From Marsupella aquatica (Eukaryota > Plantae > Marchantiophyta): 64,000 bases of DNA. The notes below the pieces were generated by a model. The model was given only the letters and a program-made list of their open reading frames with translations. It had not been told where the DNA came from and did not search any database. A program made the translations under genes and the position numbers. Below are positions 1-45,475 of the stretch, piece by piece; positions within the stretch are counted from its first letter, which is position 1; each line of letters begins with the position of its first letter. The stretch covers positions 15,155,974-15,219,973 of the forward strand of contig OZ316899.1 of NCBI GenBank assembly GCA_973895155.1. Direction: 5' to 3'.

Positions 1-229
1 AGAAGATGACATTCGATTCCTTGACATTTTTGAATTTGATGCCCCGGAAATTCTGGAAATAACCACCGAAATTGCAAATCCGGAAATATCATCAAATCCG
101 GATCAGGCACACTTCATCCGAAAAGATCCGGGTTTACACTCCGATCCGGAAAAAGATTCTAGATCCGGCTTACAACCTGCATGACGCGAGGACCCTTCCT
201 ACCTAAGCACTGGAGTCAAATCTAGGATC

Positions 230-3141: not shown

Positions 3142-3167
3142 CGGTTTGCAAGGGCGCTGCACCGGTT

Positions 3168-3177
3168 GGGGAGGGAG
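3168..3177 (+). promoter_or_regulatory. Polypurine tract of gypsy element 1
   Basis: GGGGAGGGAG lies 27 bp after the pol stop. It is followed by TTA and TATGATA (probable decayed TG start) and an A/T-rich run like the starts of the two solo LTRs. Confidence 0.65.
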
Positions 3178-3180
3178 TTA

Positions 3181-4750
3181 TATGATACCATGGTTATAAA
3201 TAAGGAAATTAAAAAGTACAAAAATTTAAAAATTTTCAACTTTTAGTGGTTAACGGCGTATACTTTGACCGGAAAAGACCATAACAAACTACTTTGCAGT
3301 ATCAAATCCGGAAATATCCGGATAGCACATTTTTTGTGGAACTCTTAAGTAACGACACCGTTGAGCCATGCGAGTAGGCATGGGAGAATGAATATTAAAA
3401 CCATAAGTCTGACGTCTGACCGAAGACCGGAGGTTGGCAACCGAGTTCTTAAGACCGTGCCAAACCAAGCATTCCTCACACCACCGAACTGCTGCAGAAA
3501 TCTTTCGCGAGGAATCATAGGAGAGCTTAGAGCTGGACGAGGCTGCCGTTTCGAGGCAATAGTTGAAAGGAAGTTGGTTACGGGGGAACTGGGTGATCGT
3601 TTGATTGAGAGGGGAAGTTTGCGACTTGATGGAGATTTCTGGATTTGGGAATTCCGGATTTTGGAAGGATTTTAATTTGGTTCTTTCTCTCCATCTTCTC
3701 ATTATGGTGAAGAGAAAGGATCTGGATTTTGCCCCGGACAAATCCGGAATTCGGACGCTACCAAAGCGAACGACCAAGGAGCGGACAGTGATTGTGAATG
3801 AAAAGCCACTCCGACCGGAGATTCCCACGGATTTGGCGAGGAAGGACCGCTTGCAAAAGAACCTTGAGACCATGGGTTGTGCAAAGTTGATGGAGTTGCC
3901 ATGGGGCTACTAGAGTGCAGTATTCGTGAAGGAGGTCCGGAATCGTACGACCCTTGCTTCGGAATTTCTGGATTCTATTCGAGCCAAACCGGAAAAGTGG
4001 ACTGCGGCAGTAATCTCTTCACTCTTGGATGTGCCTTTGAAAGGAGAAGGCTTCTTGACCTCCAAGAATTCCTTTGCAGATAACTATTTTGATGGTGAAG
4101 TGGATCCGAAAGACGGTTGGAAGGTGTCCCAGTGCTGTAATGAGGAGTTTTACAACGTTCTGTCCTTCCGGCTTCCACTTCTTTCCCCTGCCAAGCCTCA
4201 ACGAGTTACAATCCGGATTGGAAATACTATTGCTGCTTCTTACATAGGGGAGAAGAAGATTTCCTGGGCCAAAGTTTTGGAGGAAGCTATAGCCAACCAG
4301 GTCCGGAATCTTCATTTGAAGACTCCCACATCCCTTTCTTGCTATCTAGCCAATATTTACGCGATGGACCGGATTCTTACAGATGAAGAAGCGGAGGAGT
4401 ATGAGAATCAAGCCATGTTAGCCCAACTTGGAGATCCGGATCGACAACCATCTGAAGGGACTGAGTGCGACCTCCCAAGACGCAGAAGAAATTTGTGCAG
4501 AGTCCGGAACCGGATCCTGTTGAAGTTCCGGAAGCTGTCTGGAGACCGGAAAGTAGAGGAAGTCTTCCGGGTGTGACCCCCAATTCAAAGTGGACGGCAT
4601 CAGCAGAGTTGGAGCATGTCTGGATTTTCTTGGAGAGTGCGGCCGGAAAGACAAAACAACTTGAGGACCTTGTTGGGACGGTTGCTGAGATGCTCAACTG
4701 CAGCCCGGTTGTCATCGTTTCCACTCTGGACATGGTCCTTACCAGCTTAG
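3181..4750 (+). mobile_element. Probable 3' LTR of gypsy element 1, truncated, containing an ORF
   Basis: Starts right after the PPT and has the same layout as the TG...CA elements at 6150-10659 and 18894-22946 (A/T-rich start, CG-motif cluster, homologous ORF). The right end is lost in a repeat/deletion scar. Confidence 0.6.
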
Positions 4751-4758
4751 GAGTTTAG
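3704..4758 (+). pseudogene. LTR-borne accessory ORF of unknown function, N-terminal part
   Basis: MVKRKDL..LMELPW..IRAKPEKWT..LLDVPLKG..PKDGW..LSPAKP..IGNTIAAS..ISWA..YLANIY. One premature stop at 3911-3913 and a frameshift near 4470. Motifs align with the ORFs at 7619-10228 and 19327-21755. Confidence 0.8.
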
Positions 4759-4950
4759 GACATGGTCCTTACCAACCCGGTTGTCATCATTTCCACTCTG
4801 GACATGGTCCTTACCAGCTTAGGAGTTTAGGACATGGTCCTTACCAGCCCGGTTGTCATTGTTTCCACTCTGGACATGGTCCTTACCAGCTTAGGAGTTT
4901 AGGACATGGTCCTTACCAGCCCGGTTGTCATCGTTTCCACTTTGGACATG
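4701..4950. repeat. 72-bp tandem repeat, about 3.5 copies
   Basis: Units start at 4701, 4773, 4845 and 4917. Each contains the sub-repeat GGACATGGTCCTTACCA twice. Confidence 0.95.
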
Positions 4951-4973
4951 TCCTTAGGAGAAGGATGAAGCTG

Positions 4974-5547
4974 GTGGAGGTTGAGTTTCAAGGGTGTTTG
5001 GCCCCTAGACCATCAGTGGGGCGAGAACCAAGAGTTGGTTGCTAGAGTCGGGGCCAGTTTGGTCCTGGCGTGTTGGGACAAGCTTTAGGACAAGCTATGC
5101 TATTTGGGCCATAAGCATATCCTGGGGTCAGGGCGGTCAGTTGGTGATGGATAGGTACAAGGGGGAACCCAAGCCGCACCCAAGGAAGGAGTTGTTCTTG
5201 ATGAACAGTGGACTGGGTTGTGGTTCCGGCTTATGGCATCGGGAGGACCTATCACTAACCTATTTATCAACCTCTATTGAGCTTGAGTTAGGATGCTAGA
5301 CTTGGTGAGTTCTAGATCTTGAAGGGTTACTTACCCAAGGTGCTTGGTTGCTTGTGCAGACAGTGAGGACCGTTGAGTAGCAATCCTGTTGGAGAGCAAG
5401 TGCGGCTTTGTATGGGAGGGGCCACGGGCGGTGCAAGGGGCACTAGGTTGCTTGCTCAAAGTATTCTATGGAGACATTTGGGCACCAGGGGCACTTAGGC
5501 ATGAGTGTTGGGATTGGTGAGGGTGCTGGGTGGCAAGGTCCACCACT
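4974..5547 (+). mobile_element. 3' part of a chromovirus-family LTR, ending ...CCACCACT
   Basis: Colinear with the 3' third of the complete LTR at 43980-45473. Ends at ACT and abuts pol sequence of another family member. Confidence 0.9.
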
Positions 5548-6149
5548 TGGTCCCCAGAACATGACAAACTTCAAAATTGAAAATCAGCCAAGAACATCTG
5601 CTAGCGCATTTCCTTGGGGTTCAGCCTTGGCTTAGAACTGAAGTACCCAGCCGACAAGCTATCTGTGTGTATTACCACTTTGGGACCGTTCTTAAGGTAA
5701 ATCTCCCACTTCTTCAATGCGTAGATCACTGCATACATTTCCCTTTTTGGTGTGATCCAATGATTTTCCAACTTACATGACTCAAAGGCCACAGGACGCC
5801 CATCTTGGCAAAGACAGGCGCCAATGGAATAATCACTTGCGTTTGTCCAAACTCAAACGGCTTTCCCATCTCAAGTAACTTTAGAATTGGCGGAGATTTC
5901 ATTAGCCACTTGAGTTCTAGGAATGCTAACTCGCAATCTTGTGTCCACACAAACACTTTGTTTTTCATTATTAGCGCGTTTAGGGGCCTTCCGATCCTCG
6001 CATAGTCTTTTATGTATCATTCATAGAACCCCATAAATCCTAAGAAGGCTCTAACTTGCCTTACATTGAATGGGCGCTCTCATTCTTTGATCTCCTTTAG
6101 CTTGTCTTGACTAGGCGTAATCTCCTCGAGGGTAAAGGTATGGCCAAGG

Positions 6150-9100
6150 TGCAGTATCACACTAGGGACATAAATAAATATTTAAGATCCAAAACTCGGT
6201 ATTCGTTCCCATGGAAGAACATGTAAGGAATGATTTTCTATGATTTAGCACTTATGAATGACTTAAGTAACAAAAACACAAAGGTGAGCCTTTTACTATG
6301 GTTGCTCAGCAAGGCATAGTTTTGAATGTTTGCTTAACATTGTAAATAAAATTAACAAATGGAAACAATTAACAAAATACAATGAAAATCTTGAGGTATG
6401 GTAAGGGAGTTAGGAAACAACCAAGGTTACTCCTCAACATAACTTCATTTGATATGATTTAGGTGGTATATCCGTAAGAACATTCTGGAAAGGATTACGG
6501 TACTAGGATGATTACTAAAATGTCGTCAACATGTGTCAACTTTTCCTTCCAAGGTACTGAGTGGAGACTAGTAATCAATCACTTCTGTATCCAATCGGTA
6601 CTTTGTGTCACGAATAAGAGACACCATCATGATCAAATTTGAAGCCATAAGTAATTGGTAAGTAACAATCTTTGCATCCCGTGCACAAGCAATGTCACAT
6701 CAAAAACTATGCATCAAGAACTAAGGAATATGTGAAACATCACCAATAAGGAATCTATTTCCACATACTCAAAAGATTTAACAATCACAATAATTTTACT
6801 TCAAGGGTCCAAACTTCTCATTCATTTAGACTTGCAGGGGGAAGAATTCTTTTGTATTAAGTACTCATATGCAATGGAGTGCTTGCTACAAATGGAGGTA
6901 ACAAAGTTGCAATCTTGCAACTGAGCGCTCATGGAATTTCTTCACACAAAAAGTAACATAAAGTCTACTACATATAGGCTAGCAGGAACTAAAGGGAAAA
7001 GAGATAATGCAAGGACATGCCCTTTCATATTTTAAGGGTCATAAACTAAAGTAAAAAGTATGAAAATATGTTACAAGAGTACACAAGGTTCACTAGAATG
7101 CTGCTGGAATGAAAAACTAATCAAAAGTTATCCCTAGTGTAAATTGGAGTGAAAGTGTTTTTGCACTTTTGCGATAAAACTAACAAATAGTGAGTTTGTT
7201 GGAATTTTAATTTCTAACATAAAGTTCATAATAGTGTGAAACTTTTCAAGGCGAAAGATTTACATAAATGCTACATGCTGGAAAACTTTCAGACTTTTCT
7301 GAGATGTCTAAGTGCCTTAATAAAATCGGTGAAAAGTGCTGTTGGATATAAAATACATTTTTCTGGAAAATTTTCTAAGTGTCGGAAGCGCCGTTGCACC
7401 TTTGCGCTTTGGCATAGTAGCGCCGTTGCGCCTTTGAGCACTCATGCCACTGTAAAACTAAAAATTCTATAACTTCTAAACTACATGTAGGTTTTGGCCG
7501 ATACTTTTCAGGGGTGGATCTGTTACCTCGTGGAAAAGTATGAGACTTTTCTATCTATGATAACTATTTAACAAAAATGGTGGAGATTGACTAATCCTGA
7601 CTCGAAGGATGAAATAGGTCAATCCTCTTGAAGTAGTGCTGACTGGTCCAGTTGTTGAAAACTCCTGAATGTCTCAGTTTGAATCACCTCTCGAAGGAAA
7701 TCCATAACCTGCGTATCATGTCGAGCAAATGGAAGAGACCTGATTTGTCGTTCAACATTTAGAATGGGGAGTAGTCTCATGTGAAACATAGTGTTCACCT
7801 TGCTAGCTTGCATATAGATGCCGACCAGATCATAACTACAACAAGTGGTGTGGTAGTTGCATGGAAACTTGTTGATGAAGGTGTCAGAGTCCTTGGCAAG
7901 TGATAGAAGTGGAGTGACACTAGGTAACAGTTCCCGCCACTTCAGGGTGTAATCAGCCAACCGCTGGGAAGTGATGTTATTCTAGATTCTCTGACTCTCA
8001 GCAACTGGTGAGATAAATTGTTGAACAACAAAACGTTCCTCTGGTAGGACACCATGGTCGACCTGATATCGTTTGTTGGTTTGTCTCAAAAAGTTGATGA
8101 TGAATTCCAAGACATAGGCAGGTAAATTCCCAAAGTATGTCAGGGCCAGATCTCTATTCTCCAGTACAATGTGTCCAACCAGGATCATGACACCAAGAAT
8201 AGGGCAAAAATATTTAGCCTTTGTCCAGATCTCATCCATCTCTGCTATCTCTAGGCGGGTGACATCCTTCAGATGAAGCTTCAGGATATAGAGACATTCA
8301 ACTCTCTTCTTATGATAGTACTGCCAAAACTCTAAAATGGGAGGAGTTCTAAGGTCTGAAACTCTGACAAACTCAGCAAATTGTGTAATATTCTCCTGAG
8401 GGGTTTTAGGGTCAATATGGAGTGTAGGAATGAAATGGACTTGGCAGGATTTATCTTGACCTGGTGGAAGGATGTCAGGATAAGAAATGGCAAGATGTTC
8501 ACCTATAGGTGTGATCTCAGGTTCTGGAAAACTAGGATAGAGCTGGTCTGGTTGATTTGAAGGACTGTAAGGAGAGGGGGGTGAATGACTAGAAGGAGGG
8601 GTAGAATAGTAAATGGGAGAGCCAGATGTTGAGGTATGATAACGGACAGCATAATAGACTTGCTTGGTGCTGCATCCAAAAATCTGTGTAAGCCTGTGGA
8701 CTAAATCCTCACAATATTCTCGATGATGGTCTCGGGCAAGTAAGCTGATGTCTTATGCAGAAGATCATCTAAGACATCAATTAAGTGTCTCTCATCACAC
8801 TCCAGCATGTCATTCATTTTATTGACAAGAGTAGAATAGTGTTCAGTAGAGTGACCTGGGGAGGCAGATAGTGTCTGTTGAAGCTCTAACCTGGGTGATG
8901 CATCATTTTCCTCCATTGGTTCAGCTTCAGTAATATTTGTAACCCTAATATTGGAGGTGGGTTGAAATAGCTCCATCACCTCAGGATAGAACTGAGTAGG
9001 ACCTTGGGTTGGAGAGTATGGAGAATCGGGACTACTAGGTTCAGGCAGAGTTACAGAGGCTGCTCTTAACCTCTCAACTGAGTCAACTATCTCCTCAGGT

Positions 9101-10659
9101 TCACAGATCAATAAGTTGCTTAACTTATCAATAATTTGCTGATTAGATTCTACTCTCAGTTCATCAGCCGTTGGTTTGCTGAACATGAAGGGTCTCTTGC
9201 GGGATCTCATAGAAGGGGTCAAGCTGTCTACAAATAAATTCTGAGTTGGGACTGTAGGTGAGCAAAGAGTAATAGGGACAGAGATGTTAACTACAGGTAC
9301 AGGCAGTGGGGGAACCTCTGGTTTGGATGTATACTCATCGAGATTGGAATTGAGGGGGGTGTAAAGTCTTCGATCTTGATTGAGATCTTCAAAAGGGGAT
9401 AGAGGATTATCAGGAATTGGTGAAGAGGTACTTCTGGGTTCCACAAGTGGTTCTCCATGGGTAAGAGGGGTAACCTTTGAACAGATAGGTGGGGGAACCT
9501 CTGGTTGAACTTCATCAGCATCTTCTCCTTCAGTATCCTTGTTTCCTGATTCACTAAAATCAAATTCATCAAGCAGTCTGATCCGCTCCTCTTGTTTGCC
9601 TAGAAGTAAGCAATTCCCATGAAAGTACAACTGGCAAAGATAAGCAGGGAGAGTAGTGAACTCATCTATTTTCACCTTCTTTACTTGAGATAAAATAACC
9701 TGTCTTAGCAACAAGGCCCAATTTATCTGAGCAACTCCCTTCCAACTTGCCACAATAGTATTGTCAAGTGACACAGGTATCATATGTGGCCAAATGGGAT
9801 GGAGAATTGGAATCAAAAACTCTAAAATGATTTTAAGAGTATAATTGGTGCACTGGTCCATTTTCCATCCATGGCAAACGTTTCGAGTTCCAGAAAAATA
9901 AGGCCTCGCAGTCTCTCCTTGTCGTGAGTGTAGGCATCACCTTCGGCGGGACAGTCGAAAGCATCAGCAACAAATTGCAGAGTCCAGAATTCTGGATTTG
10001 CCCAAGCAGTTCCCACCATACCAACTTCGATTCGTGCCCCATCACTGAAATCCTTCAGAAAACTTAATGAAGTTACGGACCAAGGCAGAGTGAGCAATTT
10101 ACTCAGGTGCATGACTGCCAGTGCTTCCTTCAGAACGTGCAAGTTTCTTTTCATCGTAGGGTATGTCACAGGGACGGCCTTAGGTAAAGGAACTCCTCTT
10201 GCAGTCATCTCTCCCCTTTGTCTGCCATAGTAACAAGGAACAAGGCGTTGTCACCAACTATTGATCCAAAGAGATCAATGCCAAGTGATCCGCCGTTGCG
10301 CTTTCGCTCTGTTGCGCCCTTACGCCTTTGCTCCGAAATGCTGTTGCGCGGTTGCGCTATTGCGCTTTTCCCCCAAAACGCCGTTGCGCTTTTACGCCAA
10401 AACACTCTTTGTAACGCACGGTCAAACTTGGCAGCACCAATCTTCCTTCCGTGCTTCGAGAACATCGATAGTAGTTTCTTCTGGCTCGTCTCACCCCTAC
10501 TTAATTACTCAGGGTATTATCCATTAATCTGCCTAACTTAAGTCTTAACCTTACTTATATCTATAAGTAGATTAATTGGCTATGTTTAATCTATTTCTAA
10601 GTACAATTTTTTTTAATTTTTTCATTATTTCTAAGTTTCTAATTTAGACAGCTATTACA
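6150..10659 (-). mobile_element. Solo-LTR-like element A (4510 bp, TG...CA) carrying a long ORF
   Basis: Perfect 5-bp TSD CAAGG (6145-6149, 10660-10664). Minus-strand termini TGTAAT...ACTGCA. No gag/pol and no internal LTR pair. The 3' end shares blocks with element B (GGGAAC.AATACCGAGTTT, GTTGACGAC, AGGAGTAACCTTGG). Confidence 0.85.
7619..10228 (-). pseudogene. LTR-borne accessory ORF (~870 codons), decayed
   Basis: Joins ORF pieces 9822-10208, 8701-9861, 7982-8239 and 7619-7960. Conserved N-domain (LLTLPW, ANPEFWT, FDCPAEG, LEFLIPILHP, NTIVAS, INWALL, YLCQLY), a Pro/Ser/acidic middle and a C-domain shared with 21033-21755. Confidence 0.85.
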
Positions 10660-11415
10660 CAAGGAACTGAATCTCGTTCATCGCAAACTTGCACTTGCTA
10701 GGTTTAGCAAAGAGACGAGCCTTACAAAGGCAAGAGAACACTTCCCTGAGCAACTGCTCATGTTCCTCCAATGTTTTTGAGTAGATTAGGATGTCGTCAA
10801 TAAAGACGACCACTCCTTGGTCCAACAAGTCATAAAGATGGTATTCATCATCTTCATGAATGTTGAGGTTGCATTACACAACCCTAACGGCATAACCAAA
10901 AATTCATAGAATCCAAACCTTGTGCGCATCAAGGTCTTATACTTGTCTCCCTTAGCCATGAAAATCTAGTAATACCCAGACCGCAAGTCCACCTTTGAAA
11001 ACTTCTTAGCCCTGGAGAGGCAATTGAAGAGGTCATCCATATGAGGTAATAGGTACTTGTTCTTTACCATTTGCTTATTGAGGGCCCAATAATCTGCACA
11101 GAATCTCAAAGTACCACCTTTTTTGGACACAAATAGCACGGGTGCCCCATAAGGACTCTTACTAAGATGAATGAACCCTTGGTTGATCAACTCTTCCAAG
11201 GCATTCTTCAACATCATTGTTTATTCAGGTTTAGACGATAAGGAGCTTTAGCCTAAGGAGCTGAACCTGGCTCCAACTCAACTTAGTGATCCACTTCTCT
11301 CCACGGGAGTAAACCTTTAGGTAGCTTCTATGAGAGCACATCATTAAATTCCTCTAAAATTTTAGGAATTCGACCACAGTTGGGCCCAACCTTAGCTGAC
11401 TTAACCTTTGGTTGC

Positions 11416-12644
11416 GTCTAGTATCCTAACTCAAGCTCAGCAGACATTGGTAAGTAGGTCAGTGATAGGTCCTCCCAATGCCATAAGTTGGAACCAGAAT
11501 TAACGCCCATTGTTTGTCCAGAATAGCTCTTTCCTTGGGCGCAACCCGGGTTCCCCCTCGTACCTATCCATCACCAACTGACCGCCGTGCCCCAGGACAT
11601 GCTTATGGCCCAAATAGCCTAGCTTGTCCCTAGATGTCGGGACCAGGATGTCCCCAACTTTAGCAACCAACTCTTGGTTCTTGCCCCACTGATGGTCTAG
11701 GGGCCAAGCGCCCTTGGAACTCAACCTCCACACCTACTTGGCCTTGCCTCCCCAATGCAAGCTCCCTTGAGAGACTGAACGCGGTTTGGCTGTTGTTTTG
11801 ATAGGATTTGGCAAGCAGGCGAGATAGCACCCGCAAACCTCGAGAACCTATGGTGCCCCTGGACCTAGCTGAGCTCAAGAGGATGTAGCCCCCTCTAGAG
11901 ATTTCCAACGCACCCAAAAATCCCCCAACGGACTTCTCATTGGGAGGTTATTGTCGTTTCGGTTTGGCATTTTCCCTTAGTGTTGCCATTGTTGCGGCTC
12001 ACGACTTTGGCCCGCCCTTAGCCCCCAGAGAGACACCACTCCCCTCATATATGCTTCTGGAGACCTGCCACCCCCAAACCAAATTTGGTCCCCAAACTTT
12101 TGGGCCCCAACCTGGACCCTATCCCGCATGTTTGGGCGCGCCATCACCTGGCAACGCCCATAACTTCCTAGTTAGGCGTCCGCAACCGAAGTGCCTTAGC
12201 CCGTTGCAATAGGGCTGACCCAGTGCTCATGCCTAGGACCTCAGATCTCATTGCCGATCTGGGCCCCCAATCGGCCAAACCCGTTTCAGGCCATAACTCG
12301 TGCCCCAAGTGTCTGTTGCCCATGGCTTCAACTCCATTGGCCTTGGGCCCACAAGGAGCTCTCACTCAAGCCCTCAGAACTCAAAGTCCGTCCGGGGGTC
12401 TGGACGGTCAACCTTGAGCCCGGCCCTTTTCCCCTTGACCCGACTAACTCTCAACTAGTCTAAGTCCTAATTGCGTGACACTAGCCTAGCGCCTTGCCTT
12501 TGCCATCGCCACTTCCCATTGCCCATAACTCTCCCCATGCTAAGTCCTCCCCGGATGGCCTATCCAAGCCTGGACCATAAGGGAGCTCAGCGTCGGAGTT
12601 AGCAATGCCGGAGCTAAGTGCTAAGGTAGTCAAGTTCCGCGACT
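11416..12644 (-). mobile_element. Chromovirus-family LTR, 5' part (starts AGTCGCGG at 12644), inserted in the integrase of copy B
   Basis: Reverse complement of the LTR at 43980 onward. Begins within the integrase RWAH codons and is truncated at 11416. Confidence 0.9.
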
Positions 12645-15600
12645 TGGGCCCATCGTTTCATGCAATAGGGCCCCGCATATCTAGGAGCGAGCTTCCTACT
12701 TTAGTTCCCATGGTATTGTTTAGGTCTCAATTGCAACCAAATGCTTTCCCCAATTTCAAAGTTTACCCAACATTGATGTTTATCCCCTTGCTCCTTGTAC
12801 CAACTTTGGGCAAGGGTCATACCCTTGGTAGCCGCTTCCACAACTAGGCGTCACTCTTGAATTAAATTGTCCGCAGAAGGAACCTTGCTTTCTGTCCACC
12901 AAGCTTCCGGATTTATGAACCAAGAGGGCGCCCTTAGCGTCCTCCCCATGGCCAACACAAACGGTGCAAACCCCGTTGCCAAATGCTTGGTCGAGTTATA
13001 CCTAGACTCGGCCATTGTTAAGTGCTTTGCCCAATCCTTTTGATTGGCCGTCACAAAGTGACGCAAGTAATCCTCCACAATACCATTCACCCGTTCCATT
13101 TGGCCATCTGTCTCATGATGATACAATGATCCCCTTGTCAGGTCTGTGCCGGATAATCGGAACAACACCTTTCATAAGTGGCCCGTGAACTTGGTGTCAC
13201 GGTGTGACATGATATGCAACGACAATCCCCATTGTCAAAAGACATTGTCAAACACTAGACCAACAACCTCTTGGGCCAAAATCATTTTTGTAGTCGCCAA
13301 GAAATACGTCATCTTGGAAAAATGATCCACAATTGTTAAGATGGAGTTACTGCCATGGGACTCAGGTAATCTCACAATGAAGTCCATGGAGATCAACTCC
13401 CATGGTGCCGCAACTACTGGTAAGGGTTGTAGATGTTCTCCTTTTGCCCTATAGACCGTTTGGTTCTTTTGGCACAAGTAACAACTTTGCACGTGGCAAA
13501 GAACCGATTGCTTCATGTCTAGCCCATACACATCTTGTGACATGTTGCGGTACGTAGCAGCTTGTCTGCCATGCCCTCCCCAAGGCAAGTTGTGGTACTT
13601 TGCAGAACCTCCATTCTTAGAGACTTTGGGATGTACACATGCCTCTGCTTGTATTGTCATAACTGGATATTATGCATGGTATCCAACCCAAATGAAACGT
13701 GCCTTACCTTGCCTTGGCTAACCCCATTGCTTTGCCATTCCTTGGCTAACCACTTGTCATCCCCGTACGCCTTGGCCAGAACCTTTGGGCACTTGGATTT
13801 GAGCATTGTGATCCCATTGACACGATGATGGTCCCTATTCAATAACGCGTCAGCTGCTATGTTTGTCTTCCCAGGAATGTGACGGACTTCAAAATCAAAA
13901 TCCGCCAAGAACATTTGTCAGCGCATTTCCTTGGGGTTTAGCCTTGGCTTAGAATTGATGTACCTTGTCGGCAAGCTATCTGTGTGTATTACCACTTTGG
14001 GACCGTTCTTAAGGTAAATTTCCCATTTCTTCAATGCATAGATCATTGCATACATTTCCCTTTCCGATGTGATCCAATGATTTTCAAACTTACATGATTC
14101 AAAGGCCACAGGACACCCATCTTGGTGAAGACAAGCGCCAATGGTGTAATCACTTGCGTCTGTCCAAATCTTGAAGGGCTTCCCCATCTCAGGTAACTTT
14201 AGAACCGGCGGCATTATCATTAGCCGCTTGAGTTCCAAGAATGATAACTCACAATCTTGTGTCCACACAAACACTTTGTTTTTCATTGTTAGTGCATTTA
14301 GGGGCCTCGCAATCCTCGCATAGTCTTTCATGTATCTGCAATAGAACCTCGTAAGTCCTAAGAAGGCTCTAACCTGCCTTACATTGGATGGGTGTTCTCA
14401 TTCCTTGATCTCCTTGAGCTTGTCCTGACTAGGCATATTCCCCTCCGGGGTAAAGGTATGGCCAAGGAACTGAATCTTGTTCATCGCAAACTTGCATTTG
14501 CTAAGTTTAGCAAAGAGACGAGCCTTACAAAAGTGAGAGAATACTTCCTTGAGCAACTGCCTATGTTCCTCCAATGTTTTCCAGTACATTAGGATGTTGC
14601 CAATAAAGACTACCACTCCTTGGTCCAACAAGTCATGAAAGATGGTATTCATCATTTTTATGAACATTGCGGTTGCATTACACAAGCCAAACAACATACC
14701 CAAAAAAATTGTAGGATCCAAACCTTGTGGGCATTGTGGTCTTATACTCGTCTCCCTTAGCCATGCGGATCTGGTACTACCCAGACCACAAGTCCACCTT
14801 TGAAAACTTCTTAGCCCCGGAGAGACAATCAAAGAGGTCATCCATATGAGGTAACGGGTACTTGTTCTTTACCATTTGCTTATAGTCACGAAACTTGACT
14901 ACCTTAACACTTAGCTCCAATGTTGCTGACTCCAACATCGAGCTCCCTTATGGTCTAGGCCCGGTTAGGCCATCCGGGGAGGACTTAGCATGGGGAGACT
15001 TGTGGACAATGAGACGTGGCACTAGTGAAGGCAAGGAGCCAAGCTGGTGACACACACTAAGGACTTAGGCAAGCTCAGAGCTGGTCAGGTCAAGGGGAAA
15101 GGGGCCGGACTCAAGGTTGACCATCCGGGCCCCCTGACGGACTTTGGGTTCTGAGGGCTTGAGTGTGAGCTCCTCTTGGGCCCAAGGCCAATGGAGTTGA
15201 CGCCATAGGCAACGGACGCTTGGGGCGTGAGTTATGGCCCGATCCGAGTTTGGCTGATCGGGTACCCCAAGGGCGATGAGACCTGAGGGTCTAGCCATGA
15301 GCACCGGGTTGGCCCGATCACAACGGGCTAAGGCACTCCACTTGCGGACGCCTAACGAGAAAGTTATGGGCGTTGCCAGTTAATGGCACGCCCAGTATGC
15401 GTGATCGGATCTGGGTTGGAGGCCAAAAGTTTAGGGACCAAAGTTGGTCCGGGGGTAGCAGGTCTCCAGAAGCATATATGAGGGGGTGGTGTCTCCCTGG
15501 GGGCCAAGGGCGAGCCAAAGTCGTGAGCCGCGGCGGTCGCGACACTAAGGGAAAGCGTCAAACGGAAACGGCGATATCTTTCCAACGGGAAGTCCGTTGG

Positions 15601-16397
15601 AGGACTTCTTAGGTGCGTTAGAAAGCTCTCAAGGACGGCTATGTCCTTTTGAGCTCATGTGGGTCTGGGGGTGCCATGGGTTCTTGAGGTTTGCGGGTGT
15701 TAGCTCGCCCGCTTGGGTAGGCAATCGCACGTCTTGGGGTGGACGTGCAAGAGTTGCTACAACCATTAGTGTGCAAGTTTGCCAACGACACAAAAGGGAT
15801 AGTGTCAAGAGTGGTACATAGACTTTGAGTAGAGGTCATAGGCAAAAAGCAAAATTTTGTTAGTCAGGAGATGTTCTACGTTCTAGACGGTCTAGCCGTA
15901 GACTTCATTTTGTCGGTGGGTTATCTCAGAAAGCACAGTGTTACCTTGAAACTGGGGATGAGGTGCTCCATTTTCCCAATAAGGGCAGTGAGCTCATTGT
16001 TGTACACGAGATTACCAAAAATAAAGAAAGATTTCTCAAAGTAAGTAAAGTGTCATGGTTGTCCCCGTGTGTATCGGCAAAGCAATGGTGGAAAAACTTC
16101 AAGGGTGGACATGAATGTTTCTTCTCTCATGTCCACCCAGTTAAGGAGGCTGCTTCGCAGCCAAAGGTTAAGTCATCTAAGGTTGGGCCTGACTGCGGTC
16201 AAATTCCCAAAATTTTAGAGGAATTCAACCACGTGCTCTCGCAGACGCTACCTAAAGGTTTACCCTCGCGGAGAGAAGTGGATCACCAAGTTAAGTTGGA
16301 GCCAGCTTTGGCTCCTCATGCTAAAGCTCCTAACCATCTGTACCTAAATGAACAAATGATGTTGAAAAATGCCTTGGAAGAGTTGATCAACCAAGAG

Positions 16398-17320
16398 TTC
16401 CGACAATGGGGATTGCCATTGCATATTCTGTCCAACCGCGATACCAAGTTCATGAGCCATTTCTGGAAGGCATTGTTTTGGTTATCCAAAATGGACCTTA
16501 CTAGGTGATCAGCGTATCCTCATGAGACGGATGGCCAAATGGAATGGGTGAATGGTATTGTGGAGGACTACTTGCGTCAATTTGTGATGGCCAATCAAAA
16601 GGATTGGGCAAAGCACTTAACTTTTCCCAAGTTTAGGTATAACTCGACCAAGCATTTGGCAAAGGGGTTTGCGCCATTTGTGTTGGCCACAAGGAGGACG
16701 CCAAGGGCGCCTTCTTGGTTCATAAATTTGGAAGCTTGGCGGACGGATGGCAAGGTTCCTTTTGCGGACAATTTTATTCGAGAGCGGCGCCTAGTTATGG
16801 AAGTGGCTACCAAGGGTATGACCCTTGCCCAAAGTTGGTACAAGGAGCAAGGGGATAAACATCGACGCCAGGTAAGCTTTGAAATTGGGGAGAGTGTCTG
16901 GTTGCAATTCAGACCTGAGAAATACCACAAGAACATAAGTAGGAAGCTAGCTCCTAGATATGCGGAGCCCTATCGCATCATACGATGGGCCCACAAGGAT
17001 AATCCGGTTTTGGTGGTGTTGGAGACACCCAAGGAAATGGGCGTGGGCAAAAGCTACTATGTTAGCCGGCTCAAGAAATTTGTCAAAGATGATGATCCCA
17101 ACCGGGATCAGGTCTTGCGTCCAAACGCCATGTTGGTGGAGGACGCGGAGGAGTTTTAGGTGGAGGCAATTCTGGACCACCGTTACAAATGCAAGTTGGA
17201 AAGGAAAATCTTAGAGTATTTGGTGAAGTGGTGGCTATGATCAGGCCAAGAGTACTTGGGAACCGGAAGAAAATTTGGGTAATGCCTCAGAGATCCTTGG
17301 AAGCTATTGTAAGCAAAGCG
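16398..17320 (+). pseudogene. Integrase C-terminal half with GPY/F region and chromodomain
   Basis: GLPLHILSNRD, ETDGQMEWVN and KLAPRYAEPY, followed by EEF*VEAILDHR..EYLVKW..STWEPEENLGNA with frameshifts (aromatic-cage type chromodomain). Confidence 0.88.
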
Positions 17321-17515
17321 GCCTACTGCCATTGTGAACTGGTACAGGCAACTGTAGCTACTTTTGTGACTTGTATCCTGGTTTCACTCCTCTCGACCTC
17401 TTAAGGACACAGTCAGATTGCGTTGGTGCTAGAGGGTGTTGGGCGCCCAATTTGCTTTTTGCGAGTGGAAGTTGATGGTGCCCGCCTTACATCTGTGGGC
17501 GGGCTGGTTCAAACC

Positions 17516-17522
17516 AAAGGGG
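17516..17522 (+). promoter_or_regulatory. Polypurine tract of copy C
   Basis: AAAGGGG immediately followed by AGT, the start of the 3' LTR. Confidence 0.6.
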
Positions 17523-18893
17523 AGTACCCCAAGGATAGGCCATACGGGGAGGACTTAGCATGGGGAGACTTGTGGGCAATGAGACGTGGCACTAGCAAAG
17601 GCAAGGAGCCAAGCTGGTGCCACACACTAAGGACTTAGGCAAGCTGAGAGCTGGTCGGGTCAAGGGGAAAGGGGCCGGACTCAAGATTGACCATCCAGGT
17701 CCCCGGACAGACTTTGAGTTCTGAGGGCTTGAGTGTGAGCTCCTCTTGGGCCCAAGGCCAATGGAGTTGACGCCATGGGCAACAGACGCTTAGGGTGTGA
17801 GTTATGGCCCGATCCGGGTCGGCCGATCGGGGACCCCAAACAGCGATGAGACCTGAGGGCCTAGGCATGAGCACTGGGTTGGCCCGATCACAATGGGCTA
17901 AGGCACTCCGCTTGCGGACGCCTAACGAGAAAGTTATGGGCGTTGCCAGTTGGTGGCGCGCCCACTATGCGCGATAGGATCCGGGTTGGAGGCCAAAAGT
18001 TTAGGGACCAAAATTGGTCCGAGGGTCGCAGGTCTCCAAAAGCATATATGAGGGGAGTGGTGTCTCCTTGGGGGCCAAGGGTGAGCCGAAGTCTTGAGCC
18101 GCGGCGGTTGCGACACGAAGGGAAAGCGCCAAACGGAAACAACGATATCTTTCCAACGGGAAGTTTGTTGGAAGACTTCTTGGGTGCGTTGGAAAGCTCT
18201 TAAGGAGGGCTACGTACTCCTGAGCTCATCTGGGTCTAGGGGAGCCATGGGTTCTTGAGGTTTGCGGGTGTTAGCTTGCCCGCTTGCCAAATCCTGCCAA
18301 ACAATAGCCAAGCCGTGTTCAGTCTCCCAAGGGATCTTGTGTTGGGGAGGCAAGGCCAAGTAGGCATGGAGGTTGAGTTTCAAGGGTGTTTGGCCCCTAG
18401 ACCATTAGTGGGGCAAGAACCAGGAGTAGGTTGCTAGAGCCGGTCATTCTGGTCCCGACGTGTTGGGACAAGCTTTAGGACAAGCTACGCTATTTGGGCC
18501 ATGAGCATGTCCTGGGGTCAGGGCGGTCAGTTGGTGATGGATAGGTACAAGGGGGAACCTGGGCCGCACCCAAGGAAGGAGTTGTTATGGACAAACAGTG
18601 GGCGTGGGTTCTGGTTCCGGCTTATGGCATCGGGAGGACTTATCGCTGACCTATTTACCAATGTCTGTTGAGCTTGAGTTAGGATGATAGACTTGGCAAA
18701 TTCTAGATCCTGAAGGGTTACTTACCAAGGCGTTTGGCTGCTTGTGCAGACAGTGAGGACCGTTGAGTAGCGGTCGTGTTGGAGAGCAAGTGCGGCTTTG
18801 TATGGGAGGGGCCGCTGGCGGTGCAAGGGGCACTAGGTTGCTTGCTCGAGGTATTTCGTGGAGGCGTTTGGGCACCAGGGGCACTAAAGCATG

Positions 18894-21800
18894 TGTAAGT
18901 AGTCAGTAATTCCAAAGGCATGAAGAAACCAATTTTTTAATTTTTTTTTGAATTATTTAAACTATATTTGCTGATAACTATAGAGTAAACTGCACTCCAA
19001 TTAAACTCTGCCAAAGTTACGAGTCCTTGAGTATAAGTTACGGGTAAACCATGTTACGAGTTGACAAGTATATGGGTATACGCGTTCAAGAGTATATGGG
19101 TATATGCGTTTAAGAGTTTACAGGTATAAGGGTTTACTCCTTACAACTTACGAGTTTGCGGTGAGTCCTGTGATCATGACATGCTACGGCTAACTCCAAC
19201 GGGACTTCGCAACGGAACGAGGAGCGCACCTTGAAAGGGAAGGGATGCAGGACATGGGCACTCATTCCTGACTTCTCTTCCGCCTTACCTCTCACCTCTC
19301 TTGACCCAAACAATTCTCCGCGCAACATAGTGAGCAGAATTCAAGACTTGGGTGCTGACAAGCAGTACCGTGTTGAAGCTCTAGCAATTCCAAGGGGTAT
19401 AGTAGCACAAATTCCACAGGCGCCCGACGGTTGTGCTAACTTACAGGCATCTTTACAATAGTTAGGACTAAAGCGTCTACTGGAGATCCCCCGGAATGTG
19501 GAACTCTACTCTTATTTACAAGATTTTGTGAAGGGGTCCATTATTTCCATTGAATTTTGACAAATCATTCGAGCTCGTTCGAGTTTGTGGATAGTTGAGC
19601 AGATTGCTTACGCCTTTGGCTGCTCATCAAAAGGAGAGGCATTGTATTCTAAGAAAAAAGATATATCCACACCTTACTTCTCAAGAATTTAAAATCTCAA
19701 GAATGGCTGGAATTTGACTCAGTGTACTTATCTTGAATTGAGAGTTCTCTTAGAATTCTTAGTGCCGATTCTTCACCCAAAGAAGCCAACCGTCTGTTTT
19801 GTAGCCTTGGCAAACACTATTGTAGCTGCTCACAGTGGAGCTATCCAAGTAAATTGGGCTTTGTTGATCTTTAATATTATGAAAGATCAAGTGAAGAGTT
19901 TGAAGGTAGGAAGACCCACTTGTTTGCAGAATTATCTGTCTCAACTCTACTATGCCTATGACTACTTACATCTTGAAGAGAGAACGGAGAAAGGGTTGCT
20001 CCTAATCAAACTAGGCATTGAAGAAGAGATTTTAATAGAAGAACCAAGACAGGCCATTCCACCGGATTCCAATGATCAGGATGTTGATGTGGACATTGAT
20101 GTTAATATGGAGGATGTCTCAATAGGTGGTTCTGAACCTTCACCTGTACACAACTTGGAGGACATCTGTCATCCAATGTATGACTTGCACTCTCCCAGGG
20201 AAACCAGTGGTGTAGATCAACTGGAAGCTGAAGGAGATGAGTTTTTACCTGAGCAACAAGAAGATGTTGCTGAACCGACTATTGCTGCCATTCATGGGGC
20301 CACAACGCCCACTTTTTCAGAAGCTGAGTCTAATCAGCAACTCATTGATAAGTTAACCTCTCTCTTTGGTTGTAGTGATGATGAACTCTATAATGTGGTT
20401 AGTGACTTGAGAATGGAGTCAGTTAGTCTGCAGTCACCTTTTTCAGATCAGTTGACTCCTATTAGAGCAACTTCACCCATAGGAAGTTCAGAACGAGAAG
20501 AATTTGTTGTTCTCACTCCATTACACAATAGAATCCCCCTATAGAACAGTGTGAACCTGTCTCAGAGATAGGAAACATAAGTTGTGTTGCAGTTATAAAT
20601 GACCTATTGGAAATGCTTCAGTGTGAACCCAAGGAGATAGTCTCTGTTGTCAGTGACTTAATTCAGAAGTACCTAGTACCCAAAGGCCCTTACAATCAGG
20701 GTGCATGCACTTATAGTCCAGATTCTAGTTATGAGCCAACAAATGGACCTATTTATACTCAACCACAGTATGAACATCCTTATGTTAGACAGGATCTCTC
20801 TGAAGACTCCGATCCATCCTTAGACGGTGAAATTTAAAGATCTTATGATAATTCTCTTGAGTCGTCACCAAGGCAAGGATTTGAAGATGTTGACGCTGCA
20901 TTACGGTCGAATCCAAATCTAGTGGCATTGGTTACTTCTTCTACTCAAACTCCTAGAAATGCTACTATTGAGAGTAGGTACCCTAGACACCCTGAGTCAT
21001 AAGTACACAGGTATGCCACCACTTGCAAAATAATGCAAGCCAACAGACCATCAGTTGGAGAATTCTCGAGATACTACTATCTGAAGAAGAGTGAGGCTAG
21101 TTACATCTTTGACCTCAGGTGTCATGGTACTTCTAGACTGGAGATGGCACAATTTGATGAATTCTGGACTAACTCTATGTACTTCCGGCCCATTCTTGCT
21201 GTGATGCTGCTACAAGGTGATGTGGAGGTGGAGGATCCTGATTTGGTCCTGGCGTATTTTGGAAACTTTGCAACTTATATTATGGATTTTGTAATCTCTT
21301 TTCTTATGCAAAGTAAGAAGTCCACTTCTCTTCAGAATGATTACATTCCTCAAAAGCCCAAGGTTGTACTCGTTTCGACTAGTACCTTAGCTGACAAACA
21401 AAGGATATGGAATAATGTTACCTCTCAGACTCTTGCTGAATTCAACCGATACTTCAGAGATGTCATTTGGAGATTTTGTCCTTTCTATTCTAGGACAATG
21501 AGACTAAAGATTTCCTATTCCATTACCCTCAAGTATATGCTGCTACCTGCAATCACTATGATGTGATTGGGATCTACCGAGAAGCACTTCATATAGACTC
21601 GTGTTACTTACGGAGAAGTTCCTGAGAGACAATTATGATGCCTACCCTATTCATGAGGATCATCACGACAAAGTGAGTTTATGGAAGTTACTCAATCTCA
21701 GACTGTTATCCTCGTGGAGCTTCTCAAACCAGATGATATCCGACAACAAGCTTGAGGCAAAATCTAAGTGTTTTAGTTAAGTTTTAAGAGTAGTGCATCT

Positions 21801-22946
21801 TTTCAGATTTTTCTAAATGTGTTCTAAAGTTTTAAAAGCTATGAGACTTTGTCAGGAGGTAGTCTGTACCTAGGAAAACTTGCTGGAAAAATTTCAAAGT
21901 TTTTTTAGCTAGGAGTATAAAGTTAAAAATAGTTGAATTTGCTAAGTTCTTAAGTATACCGCAATACAAGTTTACGAATTTCAAGTTAGTGACTTAGGAC
22001 TATAAGGCTTTACAGTTTTACGGGTTTACGAGTTCATACTTAGCCACTTTTCCGGCTTTTCACTTACATAATGGTCATTTTAACTATTTGAGAGGTATGA
22101 AGAGGCATGTCTCTTCAACCTTATGGCCTTTCATTCTATAGATTTTTACTATAAGATAGCTCTACCACTAGTGTAGTTTATGGTAAAGTTATGCATTTTC
22201 ACCTCTTCCTTGTGTTAAACCAATTGATCATGAATCTATGAGTTTGAGATCAGGTTTAACAAATAGGAGAGACTTTCCTCTTTCTTGTGTTTGTACCTCT
22301 ATTTATAAACATAGGAAGTAAAATCCATTTGTGTAAAATCTTTGGAGTTGTGATGATAGATTCCTTTTCGGTGATTCATTGCAATTTCTTAAGTTCTTAG
22401 AGTTAACTCATTGAGTTTAAGTCTTATTAAAATTGATGGATTTTTTTTCATGTTGCTTAGTACCATCTAAATGTTGAAGTAGCTACCTTTTAGATCGTGT
22501 CTGAGTATCACTTAGAAAGAAAAGACAAGACGTGTTGACGACACTTTAAAAGAGTACTCTAGTAGCATTTTAGACCTGAAAAGCAATGTGGGTTTGAATC
22601 TCATAAAGTCATTTCATTTTGACTAATGTTTAAGGAGTAACCTTGGTACATACCAGACTTCCTTGGCATACTTTAAGATATTTTCTGTGTGTTTTATTAA
22701 TTATTTTCTTTTATTAATTTATGTTTACACAATGTTGAGTTATCATTGAAAACTACTCACCGCTGTGGAGCGATCTTCAAAATACCTCAGTAAAGTAATC
22801 AAATTTGATTACTATGTGTGGGAAACATCTTAATTTCTTTATTATTGTTTAAAACTATCAAACCAACCTCATGTTGTTCTTTACGGGAACAAATACCGAG
22901 TTTGAAGACCTTTAAGTGTGTTTTTGGTTCTTCATGACAAACTACA
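18894..22946 (+). mobile_element. Solo-LTR-like element B (4053 bp, TG...CA) carrying a long ORF
   Basis: TSD GCATG/GCGTG with one transition (18889-18893, 22947-22951). Termini TGTAAG...ACTACA. The host LTR sequence resumes exactly after it. No gag/pol. Confidence 0.85.
19327..21755 (+). pseudogene. LTR-borne accessory ORF (~810 codons), decayed
   Basis: Pieces 19231-19461, 19714-20544, 20607-20837 and 21033-21566 plus tail. LEFLVPILHP, LANTIVAA, VNWALL, YLSQLY. The C-domain EFSRYYYLKK..RLEMAQFDEFWT..YFRPILAVM..LAYFGN matches element A. The start position is approximate. Confidence 0.85.
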
Positions 22947-28623: not shown

Positions 28624-28787
28624 TGTTGTGTGACAATGGAGAGACTTGCAACTCGCTATTGTGTTCCATTATGGGTGTGACTTATATAGTCACCATAGGG
28701 TTACATGTTGGGGTTGGTGTTAACCCATGTTACCCCTTCAGGATAGGGTTAGGGGTTAACCATGGTCTAGAGTAAATGGTTACAACA
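28624..28787 (-). repeat. 3' LTR of the copia element
   Basis: TGTTGTGTGAC...TTACAACA, preceded on the minus strand by PPT AAGGGGAAG (28788-28796). Confidence 0.97.
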
Positions 28788-29149
28788 CTTCCCCTTGGAG
28801 AGTTTAGGGGTATAAAATCACCACACTACTAACCCTATGTTTATTTTTGGTGCTACCCCATTAAAACCTTCTGCTTTCTTCATAAGGAAAAAGGGTTCTA
28901 GCCACCATTAGTAGGATTTTCTTAAATTTGCACTAAGGTGAGTCTACCTTATAATTTGTCCAAATGTAAAGTTTAATTTGGGTCCCCTATTACTAAAACT
29001 ACTTCCCCTTAGTTTAAATGGGGTGTTTACGATAATAATTATTCTATCTTGTATTGGTATGAAAAATCGTATTCTGTCTATGTATACAGGAACGAAAGTT
29101 TTAGGTTGCATCGTCGTCGAGTCGGCTGTCGTCTGTCGGCTCGAGCTGC

Positions 29150-33790: not shown

Positions 33791-34231
33791 AGTATCTCAA
33801 ATCTGTAACAAATCACTGTCCGCGTTCTGATTAATATCAAATCTATGTCGTTCTCAATTACTTCAATCACTCGTGCCTTTTTATCCACGGGATTTTCCTT
33901 GGCGATAAAAGAAACTCAGGATTTCCGTGGCGGAACAATAAGATATAAAAAAAATTGAGTCGAATTTGAACGGGAAAACACTATTTCAAAGTGATTCATG
34001 CCTCTCCGATAGTGTCACTAATCAATTATATACGGATTGTGTGTTTTCCGTAAGGATTCGTGGACTATTCAGAGGATCCGAAGTTTAAATTATGGTGTGA
34101 TTTGAATCGGTGGCAGTTACTGATGTGGGGTGGGGCTAAAAACGCAACATTGGAAGTCAATTTCTTTGTCTGAAAGCCGTACTCCAATTATCCTACCTTA
34201 ACTCCAAACTGGAAAAAAAATTTAGATGCTA

Positions 34232-34245
34232 TCGCGCTGATAACG
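34232..34245 (-). promoter_or_regulatory. Primer-binding site, probably for a half-molecule tRNA
   Basis: CGTTATCAGCGCGA follows the 5' LTR directly and is not a TGG-type PBS. It is complementary to the anticodon arm of tRNA-Ile(IAU) as recalled (inference). Confidence 0.6.
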
Positions 34246-34409
34246 TGTTGTGTGACAATGGAGAGACTTGCAACTCGCTATTGTGTTCCATTATGGGTGT
34301 GACTTATATAGTCACCATAGGGTTACATGTTGGGGTTGGTGTTAACCCATGTTACCCCTTCAGGATAGGGTTAGGGGTTAACCATGGTCTAGAGTAAATG
34401 GTTACAACA
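34246..34409 (-). repeat. 5' LTR of the copia element
   Basis: Same 164 bp as 28624-28787. Confidence 0.97.
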
Positions 34410-45473: not shown

Positions 45474-45475
45474 TG

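What the first reader, a model, noticed from the sequence alone, without database searches (positions are those of the whole stretch)
3168..22946. Gypsy LTRs that encode a large protein inside the LTR itself (three independent examples)
Seen: two 4.0-4.5 kb insertions (6150-10659, 18894-22946) have TG...CA ends, 5-bp TSDs, no gag/pol and no internal LTR pair, yet each holds an ~800-870-codon ORF. A homologous ORF starts about 530 bp downstream of the PPT that follows pol in element 1, which places it where the 3' LTR must be. Inference: these are solo LTRs and the accessory gene lies in U3, so it is duplicated at each transposition and survives solo-LTR recombination. Established knowledge: extra ORFs of plant gypsy elements (Athila env-like, Ogre/Retand) lie between the LTRs; LTR-borne genes are known mainly from retroviruses such as MMTV sag. 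The three ORFs are highly diverged but share motifs, suggesting an old, selected trait.
Basis: partly seen in the sequence, partly recalled or inferred. Interest (0 to 1): 0.88.

Follow-up and report, generated by a model that had tools for sequence, protein, structure and literature searches.

The report
Anti-silencing-like gene inside giant LTRs
Two 4-kb leftover end-repeats of a jumping gene, likely from a liverwort, each carry a now broken gene for a protein of about 800 amino acids whose core is predicted to fold like VANC21, a DNA-binding protein that plant transposons use against silencing, so the gene likely helps its own family escape silencing and would stay behind in every solo repeat.

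Summary
Units A (6150-10659) and B (18894-22946) are TG...CA insertions with 5-bp target duplications and no inner LTR pair. Each holds a broken ORF of 800-870 codons, homologous to the ORF after element 1's PPT.

Two tests support the LTR location. Eight contigs in three runs stop at exactly A's left end, and one loose end there looks like a PPT. In two related elements, the bases after the post-pol PPT mirror the LTR end before the PBS (9/9 and 12/13), with the ORF 550-700 bp inside.

Three other relatives have a second PPT after the ORF, which makes it an ordinary internal gene. Element 1 has lost its 3' end, so it is unresolved: two window examples stand, not three.

The conserved 200-aa domain has 503 relatives. 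Its only structural match above Z 5 is VANC21 (Z about 8, borderline). ORF-bearing families are enriched in their own short CG-containing word, as VANC targets are. Anti-silencing is inferred, not tested. This is a new variant of known extra-ORF elements; earlier scan notes report the same layout in this genome.

The parts
1..3141 (+). Element 1: broken Ty3/gypsy pol (RT, RNase H, integrase); no extra RNase H between RH and INT, no chromodomain hit
   Evidence: Pfam RVT_1, RT_RNaseH, rve; nearest named proteins are from Calypogeia (78%) and Riccia; tree
3168..3177 (+). Purine tract after the pol stop (PPT candidate)
   Evidence: sequence; same place as PPTs in related loci; weak score against the PPT profile (E 2.2)
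3181..4974 (+). Presumed start of element 1's 3' LTR, or an internal 3' region; begins TA; cut off at about 4974
   Evidence: status unresolved
3704..4974 (+). ORF 1, broken and truncated; conserved domain 3794-4408; 72-bp tandem duplication at 4701-4956
   Evidence: domain HMM E 2.7e-67; P0127 matches through 4740; repeat D9
6145..6149 (.). Target-site duplication CAAGG, left copy (right copy 10660-10664)
   Evidence: empty site in contigs
6150..10659 (-). Unit A: solo LTR of 4510 bp
   Evidence: left end shared by other copies, with a PPT-like tract beyond it in one loose end
7619..10208 (-). ORF A, about 863 codons, two frameshifts and one internal stop
10296..10384 (-). Cluster of 6 TTGCGC words upstream of ORF A (candidate binding sites)
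7402..7426 (-). Cluster of 2 TTGCGC words downstream of ORF A
6150..7618 (-). Non-coding 3' part of unit A (likely end of U3, R and U5); no GGGG run or second PPT; 4.5-8.4 times deeper in contigs than the ORF part
18889..18893 (.). Target-site duplication GCATG, left copy (right copy GCGTG, 22947-22951)
18894..22946 (+). Unit B: solo LTR of 4053 bp; terminal inverted repeat 9 of 13
   Evidence: its 3' part matches unit A's in 4 stretches at 74-82%
19330..21755 (+). ORF B, about 805 codons, broken; 63-67% identical over its whole length to the intact natural 808-aa protein P0121
19017..19148 (+). Cluster of TTACG words upstream of ORF B; second cluster at 21972-22026
   Evidence: not significant on its own (18 of 100 simulations reach it)

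Best explanation
Units A and B are solo LTRs of a bryophyte non-chromovirus Ty3/gypsy lineage whose 4-4.5-kb LTR contains a whole accessory gene, and that gene likely encodes a VANC-like DNA-binding protein that would recognise short family-specific words in its own element and likely shields it from silencing. Shown: the insertions, their ends, the ORFs, and in relatives L005 and L010 an LTR that starts right after the post-pol PPT and runs through the ORF start. Inferred steps: (1) Plus-strand synthesis primes at the PPT just after pol, so everything from there to the PBS, ORF included, is copied into both LTRs. (2) LTR-LTR recombination leaves the gene behind in a solo LTR. (3) The N-terminal 200-aa domain binds DNA, as VANC21 does. 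(4) Its targets are the over-represented words: TTGCGC in A, TTACGR in B, TCCGGA in element 1 and several relatives, AGCGCT in L001. In A and B these cluster on both sides of the ORF, where an ORF promoter and the LTR promoter would lie. (5) Gain or loss of a second PPT behind the ORF moves the same gene out of or into the LTR.
For: LTR location: target duplications and empty sites. 8 contigs in 3 of 4 runs stop at exactly 10659 and run on into mutually unrelated flanks (agreement 0.56-0.63), and a 41-bp contig of depth 786 begins at that base. One of the 3 loose-end rows there shows a run of seven C then TCAAA four bases beyond the end, the reverse of the PPT type that follows pol in L002 and L019. 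Terminal inverted repeat test in the 3 ORF-bearing loci that hold both PBS and PPT: L005 9 of 9, L010 12 of 13, L001 no match. In L010 the last 1395 bp before the PBS and the first 869 bp after the PPT do not overlap, so the LTR is longer than 2.2 kb and includes the ORF start at 8070. No second PPT was found after the ORF in A, B, L008 or L012. The domain follows pol in 9 of the 80 loci kept. Selection: synonymous sites are near or at saturation (pS 0.70-0.99) while pN is 0.33-0.59 in all 45 pairs. Fold: two AlphaFold models have pLDDT mostly above 90 over the domain. In both, VANC21 is the only one of 48,161 chains above Z 5 (Z 8.0, 195 residues, rmsd 3.8; Z 7.9, 202 residues, rmsd 4.3; next best 4.5 and 4.3). 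Motifs: in 9 of 10 strongly ORF-bearing sequences the best CG-containing 6-mer scores above that of all 12 controls. TCCGGA occurs 19 times in element 1 and 0 times in 41 kb elsewhere in the window, and exceeds 300 of 300 synonymous shuffles in 7 of 10 coding stretches tested. VANC proteins bind short motifs that accumulate in their own element (PMC5735166, passages). No transmembrane window above 1.9 in 5 intact proteins.
Against: No full element with two long LTRs was seen here; no genome was held. The PPT at A's end rests on one row that mixes two contigs. L001, L006 and L007 show a PPT plus TG after the ORF, so the gene is not always in the LTR. The 3' third of unit A is 4.5-8.4 times deeper than the ORF part in 3 runs; this fits sister families with diverged U3, but also many short-LTR relatives. 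Z about 8 is at the level the tool calls common for models without a clear match. Identity to VANC21 is 10%, Foldseek gave no hit at E under 0.001, a profile search of PDB sequences did not list VANC21 among the 60 rows shown, and the two models share most of their alignment rows. The motif signal is weak in A (4 of 100 simulations reach it), not significant in B (18 of 100), and absent from 2 coding stretches, with a third marginal at 9 of 300. Five of the 10 ORF-bearing sequences belong to one clade, and 3 of the controls have under 1.4 kb of sequence after pol. L006 and L007, which carry distant homologs, have no CG word above the controls. All three window ORFs are broken; nothing here shows expression, binding or demethylation.
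Confidence: 0.6

Rival explanations
1. The gene is in the LTR as described, but the protein does something other than anti-silencing: a transactivator of its own LTR, an integration or chromatin tether, or a particle or RNA chaperone.
For: A shared fold shows no function. The related host protein MAIN acts in silencing, not against it (PMC5418596, passages; VANC-MAIN structural homology in PMC13547354, passages). The region after the domain is acidic, proline-rich and predicted disordered, as in activators. Word enrichment fits any sequence-specific binder.
Against: The enriched words are mostly CG-containing, the 400 bp upstream of ORF A keep their CG (observed/expected 1.35 against 0.27 in the ORF), and the only structural match is an anti-silencing protein.
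Confidence: 0.27
2. The ORF is an ordinary internal extra ORF upstream of the true PPT and the LTR is short (1-1.5 kb). A and B would then be odd partial insertions or a non-autonomous element with no LTR pair.
For: This layout exists: L001 reads pol, purine tract, 745-aa ORF, PPT plus TG at 6574, about 990 bp, CA, PBS, gag. L006 and L007 are alike. The 3' part of A is deeper in contigs. It may be true for element 1, whose tract is followed by TA.
Against: A and B have no PPT after the ORF. They have TG...CA ends and target duplications around the whole unit. A's left end is shared by many copies, with a PPT-like tract beyond it in one row. L005 and L010 pass the inverted-repeat test at the first PPT.
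Confidence: 0.08
3. A and B arose not by LTR-LTR recombination but by direct integration of an LTR-sized cDNA primed at the upstream PPT of a two-PPT element.
For: Elements with two purine tracts exist in this clade, and such a product would also have TG...CA ends and a target duplication (inference).
Against: A and B lack the second PPT that such a parent would leave inside them. Solo-LTR formation is the established route (own knowledge).
Confidence: 0.05

Closest known systems
Athila and other OTA non-chromovirus Ty3/gypsy elements with extra ORFs (REXdb, PMC6317226: passages and supplementary file 3; review PMC7264820: parts 1-2 of 3, the whole main text)
   Same: 5-bp target duplication, no extra RNase H, no chromodomain hit, very long LTRs (up to about 5 kb in non-chromoviruses), and an extra ORF downstream of pol. 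There is a weak link to Transposase_32 (PF20167): 2 of 60 members at best E 0.005, and L006 at E 2.5e-4, below the cutoff.
   Different: Those papers place extra ORFs in the internal region between the LTRs. Here the ORF lies inside the LTR in A, B, L005 and L010. No transmembrane segment was found. The hosts are bryophyte-like.
VANC21 of Arabidopsis VANDAL21, a Mutator-like DNA transposon (PDB 9lnk, 9lnj; PMC5735166, passages)
   Same: Predicted fold over the whole 200-aa domain (Z 7.8-8.0); conserved domain plus variable tail; family-specific short words repeated in the element.
   Different: 10% identity; carried by an LTR retrotransposon; words also spread through coding sequence in some families; binding and demethylation untested. 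PMC13547354 (passages) calls VANC dicot-specific and derived from MAIN.
Plant mobile domain proteins: MAIN/MAIL1 and Gypsy-encoded PMD-A (PMC5418596, passages)
   Same: A retrotransposon-borne domain tied to silencing; linked to this domain only indirectly, through VANC's reported homology to MAIN.
   Different: PF10536 is not among the 25 of 32 families shown for 60 members, and there is no Pfam hit in the window's ORF pieces. That survey reports PMD-A from angiosperms.
MMTV sag in the LTR (PMC9412291, search listing only; details recalled)
   Same: A protein-coding gene inside the LTR, so present twice per element.
   Different: A vertebrate retrovirus; sag is a much smaller membrane superantigen (recalled); no relationship to it was tested.
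Phygy of Physcomitrium (PMC6317226)
   Same: Bryophyte non-chromovirus Ty3/gypsy.
   Different: Phygy has 4-bp NCGN target duplications, a tRNA-Trp PBS and no extra ORF; A and B have 5-bp duplications and an ORF.

Membership tests
solo LTR | TG...CA ends with a 5-bp target duplication and an empty site | tested here: met
   (B matches 4 of 5)
solo LTR | Left end follows a PPT in other copies | tested here: met
   Unit A only: one loose-end row from two mixed contigs, plus a shared boundary in 8 contigs. Not tested for B.
solo LTR | Right end followed by a PBS in other copies; the unit occurs twice around gag-pol | not testable with these tools
   No genome; both read-laying runs were used (14, 52), and one search showed only empty-site ends there. 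Shown only for relatives L005 and L010, by the inverted-repeat test.
LARD / TRIM / TR-GAG non-autonomous element | A pair of LTRs around an internal region | tested here: not met
   No internal repeat over 38 bp in A or B
Athila (REXdb) | RT/RH/INT group with Athila reference sequences | not tested
   The tree held no REXdb references; element 1 sits with Calypogeia and Riccia proteins, outside the clade with extra RNase H
Athila (REXdb) | No extra RNase H, no chromodomain, 5-bp target duplication | tested here: met
   lineage table
Athila (REXdb) | PBS for tRNA-Asp | tested here: inconclusive
   L001, L005 and L010 share one PBS. Its likeness to the Athila PBS is recalled; it was not aligned to a tRNA.
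Athila (REXdb) | Extra ORF lies between pol and the 3' LTR | tested here: not met
   Inside the LTR in A, B, L005 and L010; met in L001, L006 and L007
Phygy | 4-bp NCGN target duplication, no extra ORF | tested here: not met
VANC anti-silencing proteins | VANC21-type fold | tested here: inconclusive
   Sole hit above Z 5, covering the whole domain, but Z only 7.8-8.0; Foldseek E 2.1, TM 0.27
VANC anti-silencing proteins | Encoded by a VANDAL (Mutator-like) transposon, with sequence homology to VANC | tested here: not met
   LTR retrotransposon context; 10% identity
VANC anti-silencing proteins | Family-specific short motifs accumulated in the own element | tested here: inconclusive
   Strong in element 1 and relatives, marginal in A, not significant in B; no word was shown to be bound
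VANC anti-silencing proteins | Sequence-specific binding and loss of DNA methylation | not testable with these tools
   needs experiment
Plant mobile domain (PF10536) / Transposase_32 (PF20167) | Pfam match above the curated cutoff | tested here: not met
   Best Transposase_32 score 21.4 bits against a cutoff of 45; no PMD hit shown

The most novel reading that the evidence does not exclude
An old bryophyte retrotransposon lineage carries a VANC-fold, sequence-specific anti-silencing gene inside its LTR, together with arrays of the word that the protein binds. Each solo LTR is then a self-contained, self-protecting gene that can de-silence its family in trans, and a simple gain or loss of a PPT moves the gene in and out of the LTR. 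VANC-type anti-silencing would thus reach back to early land-plant retrotransposons, long before the dicot Mutator elements where it was found.
Probability: 0.4. Interest if true: 0.88.

Novelty: new variant of a known kind. Interest (0 to 1): 0.74.

Why it matters
Plant LTRs are treated as non-coding, and solo-LTR formation as the host's way of deleting a retrotransposon's genes. Here the solo LTR keeps a selected gene. The function of extra ORFs in plant Ty3/gypsy elements is described as unknown in the review I read (PMC7264820). A VANC-like fold plus a predicted target word for each family makes that question directly testable: each natural intact protein comes with a candidate binding word. 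It also bears on the origin of the PMD/VANC domain, and offers a simple route (a PPT switch) by which LTRs grow to 4-5 kb.

Tried and rejected
No genome was held, so the BLASTN search for full elements could not be run. A word-index search with ORF A's first 150 residues found nothing among long proteins. The C-terminal 269 residues of P0121 found only P0121 itself and folded poorly (pLDDT about 30-55), so that part stays unexplained. The protein atlas held neither query. Viral contigs gave no loci, and the ORF alignment was too diverged for a locus scan. Prokaryote genome contigs gave 6 loci; only the ends of the two closest (about 2.2 kb each) were printed, and the other four were not examined. 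The viral structure library gave no match under E 0.001. No RNA holder was listed. TATA and AATAAA scans did not locate R. L040 first looked like an ORF-less variant of L012, but it is 97% identical into the ORF start and then ends, so I dropped that idea. No continuation of element 1 was found elsewhere in the window. An env-like role was rejected for lack of a transmembrane segment. A 2002 Athila paper that I recall describing two PPTs was not held, so that precedent is unverified. Literature: ten searches. The phrase searches for an ORF inside an LTR (17, 54, 92) listed no plant retrotransposon case; one search gave only an MMTV review. I read listings only for most hits, the library lacks most subscription journals, and Steinbauerova 2011 and the VANC21 structure paper were not seen. 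Of the supplements, only file 3 of PMC6317226 was read.


Full report
1. What is in the window. The first 26 kb are nested retrotransposon debris. Element 1 is a broken Ty3/gypsy pol. Its integrase is nearest to proteins named from the liverworts Calypogeia (78%) and Riccia, so the host is likely a liverwort; that is an inference. Units A (6150-10659) and B (18894-22946) each split a copy of a second, abundant gypsy family. A has the exact duplication CAAGG, and its empty site appears in public contigs. B has GCATG/GCGTG; intact host copies show either word at that site. Neither unit has an inner repeat pair or gag/pol domains. Each holds a broken ORF of about 863 or 805 codons, and these are homologous to each other and to the ORF that starts 523 bp after element 1's presumed LTR start. 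P0121 is an intact natural 808-aa protein that matches ORF B end to end at 63-67%.

2. Is the unit an LTR? No genome was held, so I used two indirect tests. The first laid contigs of four runs on A's left end. Eight contigs in three runs stop at exactly 10659 and continue into unrelated sequence, and a short contig of depth 786 begins at that base, so many copies share this boundary. One of the three loose-end rows shows a run of seven C then TCAAA four bases beyond the end. That is the reverse of the PPT that follows pol in L002 and L019. The row mixes two contigs, so it counts as one observation. The second test used related elements. A metagenome scan with an integrase alignment confirmed 414 stretches and kept the best 80. 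In 9 of the 80 the ORF domain follows pol within about 240-910 bp; many of the others are distant clades or end soon after pol. Three of the nine also hold the PBS. In L005 the nine bases after the post-pol PPT are the exact inverted repeat of the LTR end before the PBS, and in L010 12 of 13 match. L010's 1395 bp before the PBS and 869 bp after the PPT do not overlap, so its LTR exceeds 2.2 kb and contains the ORF start. A, B, L008 and L012 have no PPT after the ORF. Together these make the solo-LTR reading of A and B about 90% likely.

3. The result against a general claim. L001 is a circular contig that reads pol, purine tract followed by TA, intact 745-aa ORF, second PPT followed by TG, about 990 bp, CA, PBS, gag. 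It fails the inverted-repeat test at both tracts, but only the second is followed by TG. L006 and L007 carry distant homologs of the domain (E 1.5e-6 and 1e-3) and also have a PPT plus TG behind the ORF. The gene is therefore likely internal in these. L001 groups with L002 by integrase (99/100 support), and L002 has TG after the first PPT, so the layout likely switched more than once; the direction is not settled. Element 1's tract is followed by TA and its 3' end is lost at about 4974, so it cannot be counted as a third example. The last 1.3 kb of A is also 4.5-8.4 times deeper in contigs than its ORF part. Sister families with a conserved 3' part would explain this, but so would short-LTR relatives.

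4. The protein. A profile of the three N-terminal domains finds 503 representatives at E under 0.001. None of the 10 clusters looked up has an informative name. Pfam gives only sub-threshold Transposase_32 matches. Synonymous sites are near or at saturation while replacement sites are not, in all 45 pairs, which means long purifying selection. Two AlphaFold models fold the domain with high confidence. Against 48,161 solved chains, each returns VANC21 as the only match above Z 5, over 195-202 residues; a second VANC21 entry scores 7.8. Z about 8 is borderline, and Foldseek alone did not reach significance. The fit gains plausibility from VANC's reported homology to the plant mobile domain protein MAIN (PMC13547354, passages) and from PMDs being carried by gypsy elements (PMC5418596, passages). 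The rest of the protein is largely low-confidence. The C-terminal part shared by A and B found no other relatives. No transmembrane segment was found in 5 intact proteins.

5. A second line on function. VANC proteins bind short motifs that pile up in their own transposon and cause loss of methylation (PMC5735166, passages). I counted 6-mers against a Markov background. In 9 of 10 strongly ORF-bearing sequences the best CG-containing word scores z 6.2-12.7, above all 12 controls (maximum 5.6); B scores 4.5. The words differ by family. TCCGGA occurs 19 times in element 1's 5 kb and never in 41 kb of the rest of the window, and own-family words beat every synonymous shuffle in 7 of 10 coding stretches. 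In A and B the words cluster just upstream and just downstream of the ORF, but the enrichment is marginal in A (4 of 100 simulations) and not significant in B (18 of 100). Five of the ten sequences are one clade. No binding is shown.

6. How it likely works. Priming at the post-pol PPT makes the whole PPT-to-PBS stretch the LTR, so the gene is duplicated at each cycle and survives in solo LTRs; this follows from the standard reverse-transcription scheme (own knowledge). The protein likely binds its family's word and keeps the promoters open. Location is well supported, placement in U3 rather than R is inferred, and function is a prediction (about 0.6 overall).

7. Novelty. Extra ORFs in plant non-chromoviruses are known and are described as internal (PMC6317226, passages and supplementary file 3; PMC7264820, main text). 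Phygy differs in target duplication and lacks them. My phrase searches found an LTR-borne ORF only for MMTV, within the limits of the library. Earlier unchecked notes of this scan describe, in the same genome, a full element with two 4.66-kb LTRs that each hold an intact ORF with a VANC-like fold. I reached my reading before seeing them, could not check them, and do not count them as evidence; they do mean this is a repeat within the scan. Not in the few lines of them that I saw: the two-PPT relatives, the inverted-repeat test and the family-specific words. Verdict: new variant of a known kind, interest 0.74.

Noticed in passing
window 28624-34409 (-): Very young Ty1/copia element: two identical 164-bp LTRs, exact AAAGT target duplication and an intact 1548-codon frame.
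   Followed up: partly
window 34933-38146 (+) and 28510-28609: Broken Plavaka-type transposase (weak Pfam hits) next to the copia element; a 100-bp stretch left of the copia recurs at 36308-36406.
   Followed up: no
window 46732-55593 (-): CACTA-type transposon remains (Transposase_21, DUF4218, weak Transposase_24) with a BRCT-domain ORF at 55087-55593.
   Followed up: no
window 4975-25991 and 43971-45847: The abundant host gypsy family occurs in many nested, partly inverted pieces, and its repeat appears as separate blocks (such as 14884-15715 and 17533-18896). Earlier unchecked notes describe a split-LTR family in this genome; I did not test whether it is the same.
   Followed up: no
L021 2723-5215: In a sister clade with the Marchantia protein, pol is followed after about 2.5 kb by a gag-like frame with no accessory ORF between them, so the ORF is likely absent from that clade.
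   Followed up: partly
L006: Its most over-represented word is CCAATT (44 copies, z 8.2), which has no CG, beside a distant homolog of the ORF.
   Followed up: no
window 3151-3162; L001 3739-3751; L003: The bases just before the first PPT resemble part of the PBS (GCCGCTGCC), which might be a second tRNA-pairing site; seen by eye only.
   Followed up: no
ORF A 9141-8522; ORF B 20330-20768: A short helical module of about 55 residues recurs two to three times within each ORF.
   Followed up: no
window 39096-39682: Degenerate short-repeat array, 8 copies of a 38-bp unit.
   Followed up: no
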